Shown in pieces: positions 9,001 through 15,000 of a stretch of DNA of 64,000 bases. The position numbers are program-made. Location of the stretch: the NCBI GenBank assembly GCA_047602415.1, contig JASGHH010000001.1, positions 6,773,166 through 6,837,165 on the forward strand, in the 5' to 3' direction. Origin of the DNA: Myxococcaceae bacterium. Lineage in GTDB: Bacteria > Myxococcota > Myxococcia > Myxococcales > Myxococcaceae. Numbering within the stretch: position 1 is the stretch's first letter; each line of letters opens with the position of its first letter.

Positions 9001-12000
9001 GCCATCCGCTGGTAGATCTTCTGGCCGGGATACTGGGCGCTGTTGGCCTGGGTGTCGGCGTAGGTCTCGAGGCTCATCGGCGCGCCGAAGCGCGGCGGGT
9101 TGGTGTGGCAGTCGAGGCAGCGCGACTGAACGATGCTCTCCACGTCGCAGCTGTAGCTGCCGCCGTCGCCGGTGAAGGTGCCTCCGCCGCCGCCGGTCGC
9201 TGAACCACCGCCGGTGGCAGCACCGCCTCCGCCGGTCGCGGCACCGCCGCCCGCTGCCGAGCCACCGCCGGTCGCCGAGCCGCCTCCACCGGTCGCGGAG
9301 GAGCCGCCTCCGCCCCCGCCGCTGGACGGGTGAGAGCAACCGAACGCCAATGCTGCGAGGAGTACGACGTGTGCGCGGGCCATCAGTACCTCCGAAGGCG
9401 CGCACGCTAGATCAACGGAAGGCGGAGGCGTGAGCCCCCTCCCACGCTTCGGGCATCCCGCCCGTCAGAACGTGAGGGTCACGCCGAGCTGGCCGCTCGG
9501 GCGGAAGATCGCCTGAAACACGGTGTCGACGGTGGCGAACATCACCGCCGCCTCGACGTCGAGGCTGACCATCAGCGGCCCGTAGACCTGAAAGCGCACC
9601 GTGCCGCGGGGGGCGATCGCTCCGACCCCGGCCAGGTTCACCGCGCCGAGGTTGTCGGTCTGCCAGGTCAACCCACCGCCCACTTCAGCGCCGGCGCCGA
9701 ACCAGAAGCGCCACAGGGTCCAGCTCCAGCGGAAGCCCGCCCGGGCCTGAACGCCCGCCTCGGGGCGGGTGCCGTCGCTGAGGCCGACCTTGGGGGTGGC
9801 AGTGGCGGTCGAGGTGTAGCCGAGAATCGAAGCGGTGAAGCCCGGGCCCAGGCGCGGCTCGAAGCCGATGCGCATCTGGGGGTGCAGCGAGCTGTCGCCC
9901 AGCGTGTAGACCAGCGGCTCGACCGCGCCGAGGCCCACCGAGAGCGCCCACTTGTTGGTGTCGGGGCCGAAGTCGTCGTCGAGGCGGGTGGTGATGTCTC
10001 CGCCCTTGGCGGCCACCACCACGCCGGAGCTCACCTGGGTCAGCTGCTCCCAGCGAACCTGGAGGTGCACGCCCTCGTTCAGCCTGAAGCGCCCGCCGAA
10101 GCTCTTGCCGTCTTTGAACGCGCGCACGCCATACTCGCCGGGCGCCAGCGCCACTTCACGGGCCGGGCCTGACGGCACCTCGACCACCACCTGGTCGCGC
10201 ACCAGGTCGGTCACCATCGTGCGGTCGGCTCCGTCGGGCAGCAGGAACGAGGCCGACGGCTTCACCAGCGAGCTCAGCACCAGCTCGCCCTGGCCGGACA
10301 AGCGGAAGTCGTAGTTGGGGTGCTGCACGCCCACCGGCGCCATCGCGGTCGCCTGCACGGTGCGGTCGTAGGCGTAGCGGTAGGCCTCGGCGAGGGTCAC
10401 CAGGCGATCGCCCGAGCTGTCCGCCGCGCCGCGCAGGCCGGAGATGAAGTTGTGGGTGAAGTAGCTGCCCATCACCTCGGAGGACTCGAGCGCTGATTCG
10501 TCGGCGGCGGAGGAGGTGATGAACGCCTCGCCCGACGCCACCAGGGTGTCGGTGAGCTTGATCGCGAACGCCTCGGCGGGCTTGCCGCCTTTTTCCTGGA
10601 AGCCGCCGCCCGACTTGCAGGCGTCGACGATCGCCACCCGGAGGTCGGCGCCGGTGCCCGCCAGCATCGCCTTCAGCCGCGCGTAGGGCAGCTTCTCGGT
10701 GCCCATCTCGATCGACTCACCGTCGGAGTGGCCGGAGAAATAGAAGATCAGCACTGCGCGGGTGTCGGGCGACTTCTTGAACTGCGCCACCCGCTCACGG
10801 GCATCGCCGATCGCGCGCTCGAGGTCGGAGACCCGCCGGCCCTGGAGCAACAGCACGTCGTCGCCGAGCACGTCGCCCAGCTCGACCAGCACCCGGGCCA
10901 TCTTGCCGGCGTCGCTCTCGGCGTAGCGCAGCGGCTGGTAGGCGCCTTCGCCGGCGTTGTTGCCGACGACGATGGCGAGACGGCGTGACTCGGCCGCCGC
11001 GGTCGAAGCGGAGAGGACGACCAGAACGCACACCACGCTGTGCGCCAGCCTCACCTGCTCACTTCGCTCCCTTCACGTACTCCAGCGAAATCACCTTCGA
11101 GTCCTTCGGCTCCGGCCCGGCCTTCTCGACCATCGCCTTCACGTCTTCGGCCTTCAGCGGCTCGGCCGAGAACACCGCGAACAGCTTCTCTTTGCCGGCG
11201 ACGTCGTCGAGCTCGATCGAGCCGGGCAGCTCGTGCTGGCCGCGCTCGATGGTCGCCGAGGTCTCGCCACCGTACGGGTGGAAGACGGTGAAGTTCCCCG
11301 CGCCGTCCTTGGAGCCGATCATCACGTACTTGGCGCCGCCCGCGGTGACCACGAAGCGAATCTTGTCGCCCGGCTTCAGCACCGTGCCGTCTTTGACCGG
11401 GAACTGGCCCTCGTCCTTGCGCTGGGCCACCACTTCGAAGTCGATGCGGGAGTCGCCCTTGAGGCCCAAGTCGGGGCTCAACTTGCCCGCTCCGCCGCCG
11501 GTGGCCTTGCCGCCCTTCACCCCGACGTAGACCTCGTCTTCAGACTGGGTGCCGCCGCCGCCACCGTTGCCGACCACCAGCACCGCGACCAGCGCGGCCA
11601 CGCCGAGGCCGGCCACCGGGCCCAGAATCTTCCACGGCCCGAAGATGCGGAGCCGATCGAGCCAGGAGGTGGCGACGACGCGGGAGGTGATCGCACCGAC
11701 CGTACGGGGATAGACGAATTGAACGAAGCGGTCCTTGTCTTCGTTCAGCTCACGCCACCGGGTGCGGCAGCGCTCGCACATGTCGATGTGCGCCTTCGCC
11801 ACGTTGGTCTGCTCAGCGTCGAGCCCTGAGAGCATCAACAGATCGATGGTCTCGGAGCTGAGGTGCCCGCGCGCGTTCATGCGGCCCCCTTCTCGCGGGC
11901 GAGGAATTTGCGCGAACGGGTCATGAACTCGTTCAAGCGGTTGATCACGGTGCGGCGCGACACGCCCAAAGTCTTCGCCACCTGCTCCTGCTCCAGACCG

Positions 12001-15000
12001 TCGACGTAATAGAGGACGGCCGGCGCCCGAAGGTTCTCGGGGGCCCGATTCACCAACTGCATCGCGAGCTCACGGTCCAGCATCTCCGGCTCCGGGTGGT
12101 CACCCGACGCCTCGGGAAGCTCGTCGACCGGCTCCGCCTGACGGTTCCGGTCACGGATCATGTTCAGGCAGTAGTTGGTCGAGATGCGATAAATCCACGC
12201 CAGGGCGGCCTTGTCGTCCGGGGCGGATTCGATGTGTCGCATCACACGCACGAAAACCTCCTGAGTCGCGTCCTCTGCGAGGGCGTCGTCCTTCAGCAGG
12301 CGCCGGCAACGGGAATAGATGACGGCGCCGTATTTACGGTACAGGTCACTGACCTGTCTGTTTCGGTCGACCCCCGCCATCTGAATTACGTGCAACCTTT
12401 CTTCGGAAACGTTCGTTCCTGCTTTTGACGCGGCAGGACGCCTCGAGGGCAAGCAAACTGCCTCATTTCGGGGTAGATCCTCAAGGCCATGTGCGGAGTT
12501 TTCGGGATTTTTGGACACGACGAGGCCGCGAACCTGACGTACCTGGGGCTCCACGCCCTCCAGCATCGGGGGCAGGAATCCGCCGGGATCGTCTCGTCCG
12601 ATGGGGCTCACCTAAAAACCTTCAAATCCTCGGGGCTGGTTGCCGATGTATTCAATGAGGAGACACTGGACAGCCTCCCCGGGCGCAGTTCCATTGGCCA
12701 CGTTCGGTATTCGACCGCCGGGGGCACTGGCGTCAGAAATGCACAGCCCCTTTGCGTTCAGTATTCGGGCGGGCAGATCGCGGTCGCCCACAACGGCAAC
12801 TTCGTCGATCACGAAGCCACCCGAAAACGGCTCGAGCTGCACGGCGCCATCTTCCAGTCTGATGCCGACACCGAAGCGGTGATCCACCTGATCGCCCGCT
12901 CTTCGGCGCCGCTGTTCGAGAACAAGGTGGTCGAGGCGCTCCAGCAGATGACCGGGGCGTACTCGCTGCTCTTCCTCACCCAGGACAAGCTGGTGGCGGT
13001 GCGCGATCCGTTCGGGTTCAGACCGCTGGTGCTGGGCCGCCTGAAAGAGGCGTACGTGCTGGCGTCGGAGACCACCGCGCTGGGGCTGATCGAGGCCGAG
13101 TTCCTGCGGGAGATCGAGCCGGGCGAGATGGTGGTGATCGACTCCACTGGGCTGCGCTCGTCGTTCCCGTTCGCGAAGAAGCGGGGAGGGCGCTGCATCT
13201 TCGAGCACGTCTACTTCGCTCGCTCCGACTCCAATCTGTTCGGCTTGTCGGTGTTCGAGACCCGCAAGCGCCTCGGCATGCAGCTGGCCAAGGAGCAGCC
13301 GGCCAACGCAGACGTGGTGATCGCGGTGCCCGACTCGGGCGTCTCGGCGGCGCTCGGCTACGCGCAGGGCTCGGGCATTCCCTACGACGTGGGGCTGATT
13401 CGCAGCCACTACATGGGCCGCACCTTCATCGAGCCGCAGCAGTCGATTCGGCACTTCGGGGTGAAGCTGAAGCTGGCGCCGGTGCACTCGACTCTCAAAG
13501 ACAAGCGGGTGGTGGTGGTCGACGACTCGATCGTGCGCGGCACCACCTCGCGCAAAATCGTGAAGATGCTGAAGGACGCCGGCGCGCGCGAAGTGCACCT
13601 GCGCATCTCGAGCCCGCCCAACACCTGGCCTTGCTACTACGGCATCGACACGCCCTCGCGGCAGGAGCTGATCGCCGCCTCGCACTCGGTCGATGAGATC
13701 GCGCGCTACGTGACCGCCGACAGCCTGGGCTACCTGAGCCTGCAGGGTCTGCACGCGGCGGCGGGCGACGAGAAGGGCGACGGTTTTTGCGACGCGTGCT
13801 TCTCGGGCAAGTACCTCACCCAGCTGGCGAACGCGCCTGGTGAGCGGCCGACGCTGACCGCGGTCAAGTAAGCCCCCTCTCCGGAAAGGAGAGGGCCGAG
13901 AGCGCAAAGCGCTCCGGGGTGAGGTTATGATCCTCAGCCCCGTGCGACTCCTCCTCCTCGCGGTCGTGGTCGCTGCACCTGCGTTCGCTCAAACCCCGGC
14001 GCCGCCTGAGGCGGTCACTCCTCCGGCCGAAGAGAAGCCGCATTACTCACCCGGCTGGGCGCGCGAAGGCGGCGCGATCGGCTTCGGCGTCTCGGTGGTG
14101 CCGCTCGGCCTGGCGATCGCCTCGGGCGCGTCGCAGTGGTCGAAGACCAACGGGCAGTACGACCTCACTCTGGCCGACATCTTGATCGTCTGCGCGGGCA
14201 TCTCGGCGCCGACGATGGCGCTGATTCCCACCTTCGCCGGGCGGTCTGCGGTGGTGCCCGATGACCTCGCCCACGCGCCCCGGCTGCTGCGCATTCTCGG
14301 GTGGATCATGGTGGGGTTCGCCACCATCGACATGGTCACCGCGCCGCTCTACGAGAAGGCGTTCGCGCTGGTGTTCAAAGACAACGGGCCTTCGGTCTTC
14401 ACCGTGGTGACCGATGTGATCGCCGGCCTGCTCGCGGGCGGAGGCATTCTCGTGCTCTCCGTCGCCGCGCGCCGCAGCGCCACCCGCTCCGAGATGCCGA
14501 GCGAAGAGGTCGGCCCGCCGGCGACCGTGTTCGCGCCGACCGTGATTCCGTCGATCGCGCTCGTCCCCGGCCCTCACGGCGGAGGCGTCGCGGTCGCGGG
14601 ACTCACCGGCACCTGGTGAACAGGCCTCTCCTGTCTTTCACTTTCCGGACGCTGTCCTCTCGCCTGTCTCCTCCTCCTCCTACTCCTGTCTCGTGCGCTG
14701 TCCTTTCAGCACTCTGATGGACGTGATCCGGTTTCGTGGACAGGTTCACTAACAAACACCGTCCGTCGTCGTCGTCGTTAGCAAGGCTATCTCGTTGGCT
14801 GTCTCCTGTGCGTGCGCCTGTGGATTGAGGGGGGCCCGGGGGGAGACTTGAACGCTGTGGAGAGCCTGTGGGCCTTCTCGAATTCCGCCGGCGAGCAGAA
14901 GTCGATGGCCGAGTGCATCCGCTCGCGGTTGTAGAAGACCTCGATGTAGTCGAAGAGCTTCGTCTGCGCGTCACGTGCGCTTTCGAAGCACTCTCCGAGC

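What a model noticed while it worked through the whole genome (the two positions that open the first line are those of the whole stretch)
9465..12380. Eight ECF sigma / anti-sigma / outer-membrane caspase modules
Eight paralogous operons encode an ECF sigma, a zinc-finger/TM/periplasmic anti-sigma and a signal-peptide protein with an intact caspase dyad, a beta-sandwich and a C-terminal beta domain (OmpA-type barrel in the model). They likely form a trans-envelope relay in which an outer-membrane-anchored periplasmic caspase cuts its anti-sigma at a Lys/Arg-Gly site. This would be a new, order-wide mode of ECF activation by a dedicated caspase.
Evidence so far: Modules g00440-42, g00523-25, g01596-98, g05594-96, g06084-86, g06951-53, g07431-33, g07895-98. 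Peptidase_C14 near Sigma70_r2 in 291 of 362 Myxococcales and 2779 genomes overall. His109 and Cys146 invariant in 39 sequences; 1116 homolog clusters. Model pLDDT 85.5 with 8 C-terminal strands; Foldseek top hits OmpA barrel (1.5e-7) and caspases. A KG/RG follows the TM in 7 of 8 anti-sigmas and lies in the disordered linker after the catalytic Cys in 7 of 8 caspases.
(Added by a program. Inside this text positions count along the whole contig: contig position 6,773,166 is position 1 of the stretch shown here. "Call 12" and the like, gene names such as g00115 and contig names such as C1 are that model's own, and its searches are not shown. The text may have been shortened before it was handed on; [...] marks where a part breaks off. 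The agent that wrote the report below was given it as the finding of a first reader that could run no searches.)

Follow-up and report, generated by a model that had tools for sequence, protein, structure and literature searches.

The report
Envelope caspase switch for sigma factors
Myxobacteria carry many copies of a three-gene unit (a sigma factor, its predicted membrane inhibitor and an exported caspase-type protease predicted to hang from the outer membrane) in which protease and inhibitor share near-invariant Lys/Arg-Gly sites, so the protease likely cuts itself loose and then cuts the inhibitor to switch genes on, which would give these bacterial caspases a signalling job.

Summary
Confirmed. 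This genome has eight ECF sigma / single-pass DUF4384-type anti-sigma / exported caspase modules and two orphan caspases. One module has another gene order and one ends in helices, not a barrel. 244 of 301 phylum genomes have the caspase; 131 of 159 diverse loci are contiguous sigma-anti-sigma-caspase. The His-Cys dyad is intact in 159 of 159, with a metacaspase-type Lys/Arg pocket. A promoter-like motif marks this sigma's clade and a conserved target gene. Best reading (0.6): the caspase self-processes, leaves its anchor and acts as site-1 protease before RseP. No cleavage is shown. Novelty is lower than claimed: sigma-metacaspase operons in myxobacteria were noted in 2012, and caspase-fold proteases acting on anti-sigmas are shown (Csx29/Csx30) or proposed (DdvA). 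The anti-sigma, anchor and three-site code were not found in print. The scan reported this module and its K/R-G sites before on other genomes.

The parts
11877..12380 (-). ECF sigma factor, 167 aa (regions 2 and 4 only)
   Evidence: TIGR02937 72.7 bits, cut-off 42.9
11059..11880 (-). predicted anti-sigma, 273 aa: H31-x3-C35-x2-C38 zinc motif, one TM, periplasmic DUF4384-type domain
11572..11628 (-). anti-sigma TM helix, residues 85-103
   Evidence: mean hydropathy 2.59
11512..11517 (-). site C: K122-G123 after the TM, predicted site-1 cut
   Evidence: 133 of 138 in one column
11455..11460 (-). second K-G (K141-G142) after a Gly-rich insert, seen in the window's anti-sigma
   Evidence: sequence
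11158..11379 (-). DUF4384 match, residues 168-241
9465..11054 (-). exported caspase-fold protease, 529 aa (the database start is 6 codons further in)
10992..11054 (-). predicted signal peptide, residues 1-21
   Evidence: h-region in 150 of 159 against 42 of 1748 control windows; heuristic, no SignalP
10728..10730 (-). catalytic His109
10617..10619 (-). catalytic Cys146
10587..10592 (-). site A: K155-G156 at Cys+9, start of the low-confidence p20/p10 linker
10386..10421 (-). EF-hand-like loop D212-E223 in the p10 half, possible Ca2+ site
   Evidence: 138 of 159
10032..10256 (-). beta-sandwich, about residues 267-341
10002..10007 (-). site B: K350-G351 in the linker before the barrel, predicted release site
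   Evidence: (146 of 159)
9468..9947 (-). predicted 8-stranded outer-membrane beta-barrel ending in Phe
12369..12395 (-). promoter-like motif TTGCAC-N16-GGGTC overlapping the sigma ribosome site and start codon
7063..7089 (-). second copy of the motif, one mismatch (TTGCGC-N16-GGGTC)
5083..7008 (-). GIDE-domain / tRNA_anti-like membrane protein, predicted target of this sigma
   Evidence: motif before 17 of 18 related copies

Best explanation
This is a three-gene unit of an ECF sigma, a single-pass predicted anti-sigma and an exported caspase-fold protease, and it likely works as a proteolytic relay in which the protease cuts after Lys/Arg in three K/R-G sites. Shown: gene order, domains, intact dyad and conservation of the three sites. 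Predicted from models: periplasmic protease and sandwich on an 8-stranded outer-membrane barrel, with sites A and B in loose linkers. Inferred: an unknown envelope cue (ligand at the variable anchor, clustering, or Ca2+) starts cleavage, probably in trans, at site A (maturation) and site B (release from the anchor). The freed protease then cuts the anti-sigma at site C and removes the DUF4384 domain; RseP cuts the TM; the sigma is freed. In the window's clade it would transcribe genes behind YTKCAC-N16-GGGTY, among them the GIDE-domain membrane gene at 7008-5083.
For: Linkage: 131 of 159 diverse loci contiguous, 8 more in another order (median pairwise identity 32%); 58 of 80 close loci full. 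Catalysis: H and C in 159 of 159. Specificity: best solved relatives are metacaspases by sequence and by fold (AtMC4 Z 22.0, rmsd 2.8, 207 aligned; caspases and MALT1 are within 2 Z units). D144 (Cys-2) is 102 of 102 and S107 (His-2) 101 of 102; these match AtMC4 Asp137 and Ser84, which bind the P1 Lys225. Sites: A 151 of 159 (138 at exactly Cys+9), B 146 of 159, background 26% of 31-residue windows. C 133 of 138, the two most conserved columns of the whole periplasmic part, and 128 of 130 in separately fetched representatives. Sites A and C have alike profiles (P3 Arg 58/54%, P1 Lys 79/85%, P2' Gly 40/40%) and the same P1 in 125 of 130 modules. The Arg clade also relaxes S107 and E186. Control in this genome: 7 of 8 against 4 of 36 other ECF-adjacent TM proteins, Fisher p 6e-5. 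The fold does not need K/R-G: absent before all 4 repeats of P0234 and 4 of 6 sigma-less DUF4384-like proteins. Low pLDDT starts at sites A and B. The lipobox-type clade of L086 lacks site B. An RseP-size M50 protease is in the genome, and M. xanthus RseP degrades a truncated anti-sigma.
Against: No cleavage, localisation or signal has been measured. The P1 match between sites is largely one clade-level switch: 6 and 5 changes on the tree, independent pairs not significant. Site B agrees with C less well (98 of 124). Shuffled post-TM windows contain K/R-G half of the time, so the case rests on the fixed column, not on mere presence. The 36 control proteins were picked by script and include some non-anti-sigmas, and paralogs are not independent. 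Three of 4 sigma-linked anti-sigmas without an adjacent caspase keep K/R-G, as do 2 of 6 sigma-less ones; partners in trans would explain this but so would another cause. 29 of 159 caspases lack a tail ending in an amphipathic strand (13 helix tails, 6 short, 10 other), so outer-membrane anchoring is not general. The promoter-like motif overlaps the sigma start codon in most of the clade, which is unexplained.
Confidence: 0.6

Rival explanations
1. The anti-sigma K/R-G is a docking or pseudo-substrate motif that holds the caspase inactive, as Lys225 does in AtMC4. The caspase is then an output (an envelope-remodelling or released protease), not the activator of the sigma.
For: A linker Lys blocks the AtMC4 active site until Ca2+ arrives. 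Orphan caspases keep sites A and B: 17 of 80 close loci are orphans and most retain both. Conservation alone cannot tell a cut site from an inhibitory one.
Against: Site C lies 6-30 residues outside the TM, just before the folded domain, where a site-1 cut would expose the TM to RseP. Two genomes hold an orphan caspase and a caspase-less sigma/anti-sigma pair with K-G, as expected of split partners.
Confidence: 0.17
2. The K/R-G sites are bait for an outside trypsin-like protease (from prey, competitor, phage or another envelope protease). The module senses proteolysis, and the caspase only amplifies or acts downstream.
For: Any Lys/Arg-specific protease could cut these exposed linkers. A trypsin-domain gene carries the promoter-like motif upstream.
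Against: The caspase's own pocket is Lys/Arg-type and changes with P1 in the Arg clade. The fixed P1' Gly and the Cys+9 position suit the module's own enzyme.
Confidence: 0.12
3. The caspase is simply a member of the sigma's regulon; K/R-G motifs are structural or targeting motifs and the anti-sigma is removed by an unrelated route.
For: Gly- and Lys/Arg-rich linkers are common in GC-rich genomes (26-50% background). Site C sits at a fixed distance from the first strand of the DUF4384 domain.
Against: One motif at three unrelated linkers in two proteins. It is more conserved than any core residue of the domain and absent before most DUF4384-like domains outside the module.
Confidence: 0.07
4. 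The unit is a cell-death or anti-phage module, as suggested for myxobacterial metacaspases in 2012, with the caspase as executioner.
For: PMC3501461 speculates on autolysis. DdvS/DdvA and Craspase are defence systems.
Against: Neighbours are purF, housekeeping genes, lipoproteins and a GIDE-domain membrane gene; no recurring defence gene stood out among clustered neighbours of 80 close loci (not scanned with defence profiles). No match in 72,556 plasmid records. Up to 22 matches per genome fit a signalling family.
Confidence: 0.04

Closest known systems
Sigma-70 / metacaspase operons of M. xanthus DK1622, Anaeromyxobacter, Haliangium, Sorangium, Ralstonia, Fibrobacter (PMC3501461; passages read)
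   Same: Very likely this very family: metacaspase in an operon with a sigma factor, 4 of 5 in M. xanthus.
   Different: The passages give only the co-occurrence and speculate on cell death. They name no anti-sigma, barrel, cleavage motif or mechanism. Figure 5 itself was not seen, and identity with the DK1622 loci was not tested.
DdvS/DdvA of M. xanthus (PMC11506125; passages read)
   Same: ECF sigma, zinc anti-sigma domain, one TM, a periplasmic caspase-fold His-Cys protease proposed as site-1 protease, RseP as site-2.
   Different: DdvA carries a TPR-CHAT protease inside the 991-aa anti-sigma. Here the protease is a separate C14-type protein on its own anchor (DdvA Z 10.2 against 22.0 for AtMC4) with a defined candidate cut motif.
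Type III-E Craspase Csx29 / Csx30 / RpoE (10.1101/2022.08.17.504292; passages read)
   Same: A caspase-like protease cuts a sigma-binding protein; some Csx30 C-terminal domains are DUF4384.
   Different: CRISPR-RNA-triggered TPR-CHAT protease without export. Here there is a signal peptide, a TM anti-sigma and no TPR or CHAT hit on the window's protein.
RseA / DegS / RseP regulated intramembrane proteolysis
   Same: Single-pass anti-sigma predicted to be removed by site-1 then site-2 cleavage.
   Different: Site-1 protease would be a cysteine caspase, one per sigma, exported beyond the inner membrane and self-released, not an inner-membrane serine protease.
Metacaspases / orthocaspases such as AtMC4 (PMC7206013, PMC6426788; passages read)
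   Same: Fold, dyad, acidic P1 pocket, self-processing at a linker Lys.
   Different: Short linker with K/R-G at Cys+9, an EF-hand-like loop in p10, a beta-sandwich and a membrane anchor.

Membership tests
Peptidase C14 (metacaspase/orthocaspase type) | caspase fold with His-Cys dyad | tested here: met
Peptidase C14 (metacaspase/orthocaspase type) | acidic S1 pocket for Lys/Arg (Asp at Cys-2, Ser at His-2) | tested here: met
   pairing E190 with AtMC4 Asp352 is recalled, not shown by a call
Peptidase C14 (metacaspase/orthocaspase type) | proteolysis after Lys/Arg, Ca2+ dependence | not testable with these tools
   needs an enzyme assay
ECF sigma / ZAS anti-sigma with regulated intramembrane proteolysis | ECF sigma followed by a single-pass protein with HxxxCxxC | tested here: met
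   zinc motif in 6 of 8 paralogs, TM in 8 of 8
ECF sigma / ZAS anti-sigma with regulated intramembrane proteolysis | site-2 M50 protease in the genome | tested here: met
   (contig 7440917, E 3.6e-48)
ECF sigma / ZAS anti-sigma with regulated intramembrane proteolysis | sigma binding and signal-induced site-1 then site-2 cleavage | not testable with these tools
   no experiment exists for this family in the papers searched
OmpA/NspA/OmpX-type 8-stranded barrel | eight amphipathic C-terminal strands closing a barrel | tested here: met
   (NspA TM-score 0.73 on the target); OMP_b-brl 27.5 bits on the paralog at 489795; not met by the helix-tailed paralog at 1733235
DdvS/DdvA type | TPR-CHAT protease fused into the anti-sigma | tested here: not met
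   separate genes, 273-aa anti-sigma, no CHAT or TPR hit
Type III-E Craspase (Csx29/Csx30) | TPR-CHAT protease without export signal | tested here: not met
Type III-E Craspase (Csx29/Csx30) | linkage to Cas7-11 and a CRISPR array | tested here: inconclusive
   no such recurring neighbour seen among 80 loci, but no Cas profile scan was run
ECF216 or ECF25 (2021 classification) | sigma scores to the group's profile | not testable with these tools
   group profiles not held; ECF216 is Myxococcales-only with zinc/TM anti-sigmas and EF-hands in context, ECF25 anti-sigmas may have DUF4384; neither text names a caspase (supplement cut)
Sigma-metacaspase operons of PMC3501461 | metacaspase and sigma-70 gene in one operon in myxobacteria | tested here: met

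The most novel reading that the evidence does not exclude
Myxobacteria run a phylum-wide family of trans-envelope signalling switches built on caspases: each outer-membrane receptor-protease matures and releases itself at two K/R-G sites, crosses the periplasm and cuts its own anti-sigma at a third. This would be receptor-triggered caspase signalling to transcription in bacteria, outside CRISPR defence, with up to about 20 parallel channels per genome, and possibly the free-standing relative of the Csx29/Csx30 pair.
Probability: 0.45. Interest if true: 0.85.

Novelty: new variant of a known kind. Interest (0 to 1): 0.68.

Why it matters
What bacterial caspase homologs do is a long-open question, usually answered by guesses about cell death. 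This family appears to hold most metacaspases of M. xanthus (4 of 5 in sigma operons, PMC3501461) and a sizeable share of its ECF factors, and it now has a named candidate substrate, three exact candidate bonds, a candidate site-2 protease, a promoter motif and a reporter gene. That makes the question testable in a standard laboratory organism. If true it adds a third route across the envelope beside DegS-type proteolysis and TonB-dependent signalling (recalled), and a new Lys/Arg-Gly-specific protease family (13,740 clusters of the anti-sigma domain).

Tried and rejected
Complex prediction of caspase plus sandwich with the anti-sigma periplasmic part, both as 102-row alignments: no answer, score 0.01 in both runs, which the tool says is no evidence either way. 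Sequencing runs: no RNA holder was listed. Co-evolution of P1 across sites: not significant on independent pairs, so it is reported only as clade-level agreement. Solved-structure search with the anti-sigma profile: nothing credible. A p10-only search to map the AtMC4 pocket found only weak EF-hand hits, E 0.24 and worse. No fold beyond Z 8.2 for the beta-sandwich, which was not searched alone. Plasmids: no match. Sigma-70 promoter scan: none. A shared promoter motif for all clades: not found within 300 bases of 140 sigma genes; the motif is clade-specific. Genome-wide regulon: 122 matches, 34 before a plausible start, against 12 and 19 for spacers 13 and 19, so single candidates are weak. The idea (recalled) that M. 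xanthus ActD is this caspase: no paper found; dropped. ESM Atlas gave only unnamed Myxococcota clusters and one caspase-PEGA-T9SS-tail cluster. Range outside Myxococcota was not tested here. One script stopped part-way; its tail classification was redone.

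
Full report
Observation. The window holds three abutting minus-strand genes: an ECF sigma (12380-11877), a 273-aa protein with HxxxCxxC, one TM and a DUF4384 match (11880-11059), and a 529-aa Peptidase_C14 protein (11054-9465). The genome has 10 close caspase paralogs. Eight lie with a sigma and an anti-sigma: seven contiguous, one in the order caspase, other gene, sigma, anti-sigma. Two are orphans (contig 2284423 and 770766). All eight caspases have the dyad and an N-terminal hydrophobic segment. 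The anchors differ: barrel-type tails in six, LA_2272 repeats plus a strand-rich tail at 570520, hydrophobic helices at 1733235.

Distribution. A profile of nine paralogs matched 244 of 301 sampled phylum genomes at E 1e-25 or better (the tally includes the unpublished G196), with 3 to 22 matches per genome in the 20 genomes searched in full. I fetched 120 of those 174 matches, chosen by me for score range and flank, and pooled them with 29 loci and the 10 own paralogs. Of these 159: 131 contiguous sigma-anti-sigma-caspase, 8 other order, 5 sigma without a detected anti-sigma, 3 anti-sigma without sigma in the locus, 12 orphan. One locus is present twice (L118 = L204) and kin are not independent. 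Among 80 close relatives 58 are full, 17 orphan, 5 too short. The anti-sigma periplasmic profile finds 13,740 clusters at 50% identity. The range outside Myxococcota was not tested.

The protease. AlphaFold of the full protein (pLDDT 78.4) gives a caspase fold, a beta-sandwich and eight C-terminal strands; Foldseek matches OmpA, NspA, Ail and OmpX, then metacaspases. The caspase plus sandwich model has pLDDT 89.5 and pTM 0.88, with low confidence only at residues 155-167 and 346-355 in full-length numbering. Best structural match is AtMC4 (Z 22.0, rmsd 2.8, 207 aligned), nearly tied with caspases and MALT1; DdvA scores 10.2. By sequence only metacaspases match. His and Cys are intact in 159 of 159. 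D48, D144 and E190 are invariant and S107 is 101 of 102. AtMC4 binds its P1 Lys225 with Asp137 and Ser84 (PMC7206013), which lie two residues before the catalytic Cys and His, as D144 and S107 do here. So Lys/Arg specificity is predicted. An EF-hand-like loop occurs in p10 in 138 of 159. A hydrophobic N-terminal segment occurs in 150 of 159 against 2.4% of control windows (a heuristic). 130 of 159 tails end in an amphipathic strand, 13 in hydrophobic helices (mostly the Arg clade), 16 otherwise. An even-stranded barrel keeps its N-terminal domains in the periplasm (established knowledge, recalled).

The three sites. Site A: K/R-G within 22 residues after the catalytic Cys in 151 of 159, at exactly Cys+9 in 138, where caspases have their intersubunit cut (recalled). 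Site B: K/R-G within 15 residues of the window's K350 in 146 of 159; 26% of other 31-residue windows have one. Site C: of 142 anti-sigmas, 4 were dropped as truncated or without a clear TM; 133 of the other 138 have K/R-G in one column, and these two columns (136 and 135 of 138) are the most conserved of the periplasmic part. Separately fetched representatives give 128 of 130, though the profile that found them includes the motif. Profiles of A and C are alike and P1 agrees in 125 of 130 modules, but this is mostly one switch to Arg and is not significant on independent pairs; B and C agree in 98 of 124. In this genome 7 of 8 module anti-sigmas but 4 of 36 other ECF-adjacent TM proteins have K/R-G within 35 residues of the TM (p 6e-5; the controls were picked by script). 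Without an adjacent caspase, 3 of 4 sigma-linked and 2 of 6 sigma-less DUF4384-like proteins keep it; for two of the three the genome holds an orphan caspase. A ninth, caspase-less relative in this genome (contig 7336733) lacks it. The lipobox-type clade lacks site B.

Output side. A bipartite motif YTKCAC-N16-GGGTY, read by eye from the sequences, lies at the 5' end of the sigma in 53 of 56 loci of the window's clade. Among 140 diverse sigma upstream regions a looser pattern gives 15 hits at spacer 16 and 0-2 at other spacers. The same motif precedes 17 of 18 related copies of a GIDE-domain membrane gene; the window's copy (7089-7063, before the gene at 7008-5083) has one mismatch, which I allowed after seeing it. 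This is independent support that the motif is this sigma's promoter (inference). Oddly, in most of the clade it overlaps the sigma's ribosome site and start codon, so its transcript would carry the anti-sigma and caspase but not the sigma; in the more distant members it lies before the start. Genome-wide candidates include two DUF5684 membrane proteins, a trypsin-domain protein, a Met-zincin lipoprotein and a DUF4328 protein, but enrichment is only about two- to threefold.

Mechanism. Shown: linkage, domains, dyad, motif conservation. Predicted: topology and Lys/Arg specificity. Inferred: a cue at the anchor, clustering or Ca2+ triggers cuts at A and B; release lets the protease reach the inner membrane, which a short tether might not span (periplasm width recalled); the cut at C removes the folded domain; RseP finishes. 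An RseP-size M50 protease is encoded, and M. xanthus RseP degrades DdvA once its periplasmic domain is gone. Confidence 0.6. The main rivals are an inhibitory role for site C (0.17) and cutting by an outside protease (0.12).

What is known. PMC3501461 (passages) states that four of five M. xanthus metacaspases lie in operons with sigma-70 factors, also in Anaeromyxobacter, Haliangium, Sorangium, Ralstonia and Fibrobacter; it offers no anti-sigma or mechanism in the passages read, and its Figure 5 was not seen. PMC11506125 (passages) proposes, without proof, a caspase-fold site-1 step in DdvA. The Craspase preprint (passages; supplements closed) shows Csx29 cutting the RpoE-binding Csx30 and notes DUF4384 in some Csx30 tails. 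The ECF reclassification PMC7826278 has no 'caspase' in the main text or in the held supplement, which is cut, so its tables may say more. PMC8999054 mentions CHAT proteins beside ECF54; PMC12288465 has no 'caspase'; PMC6426788 was read in passages. Nine library searches (listings only, unless named above) found no description of this anti-sigma/barrel-caspase unit or its motif; most subscription papers are not covered. The scan's own notes report the module and the sites on other genomes; I had found site B before reading them, and they are not independent evidence.

Verdict. A real, phylum-wide and mechanistically undescribed family. It works like regulated intramembrane proteolysis with a caspase as likely site-1 protease, is not a member of the DdvA or Craspase types, and is very likely the operon class glimpsed in 2012. 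New variant of a known kind; interest 0.68.

Noticed in passing
window 7983-9383 (-): Lipoprotein-like gene with a CxxCH heme motif and both copper type II monooxygenase domains, directly after the caspase. Similar genes flank two other modules (contig about 574635 and 8819561).
   Followed up: partly
window 12369-12395 (-): The promoter-like motif overlaps the sigma's own ribosome site and start codon in most of the clade; it may drive only the anti-sigma and caspase (negative feedback or reset).
   Followed up: partly
window 11455-11517 (-): The window's anti-sigma has two K-G sites (K122, K141) separated by a Gly-rich insert.
   Followed up: no
L277:1343-11035 (contig 762342-772034): Island with a trypsin-domain gene behind the promoter-like motif, a more distant TM-anchored caspase that also has K-G at Cys+9 and K-G between TM and domain, a CsgG-like and a TPR protein (names from recall), and the orphan caspase that lacks sites A and B and the barrel.
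   Followed up: partly
L088:3424-4956 (contig 2284423-2285955): Orphan caspase, closest paralog of the window's (52%), with both sites and the barrel, downstream of an Hsp70-like gene; 17 of 80 close loci are such orphans.
   Followed up: partly
L276:4737-6274 (contig 7336733-7338273): Ninth sigma/anti-sigma pair of the same type with a degenerate-looking sigma, no adjacent caspase and no K/R-G.
   Followed up: partly
P0234 (758 aa): Anti-sigma-like protein with a doubled N-terminal domain, one TM and four DUF4384-type repeats, none preceded by K/R-G.
   Followed up: no
L264 and L269: Sigma/anti-sigma pairs with K-G but no adjacent caspase, in genomes that hold an orphan caspase elsewhere: possible split modules.
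   Followed up: partly
window 15227-16017 (-): Two overlapping ORFs that read like an IS3-family transposase (from recall of the motifs).
   Followed up: no
window 12489-13871 (+): purF (amidophosphotransferase) is divergent from the sigma in many loci of this clade.
   Followed up: partly
contig 3353211, 4770801, 4809621, 6333869, 6334662: Five sigmas closer to the window's sigma than its module paralogs are, with no credible TM anti-sigma behind them; they might share its promoter.
   Followed up: no
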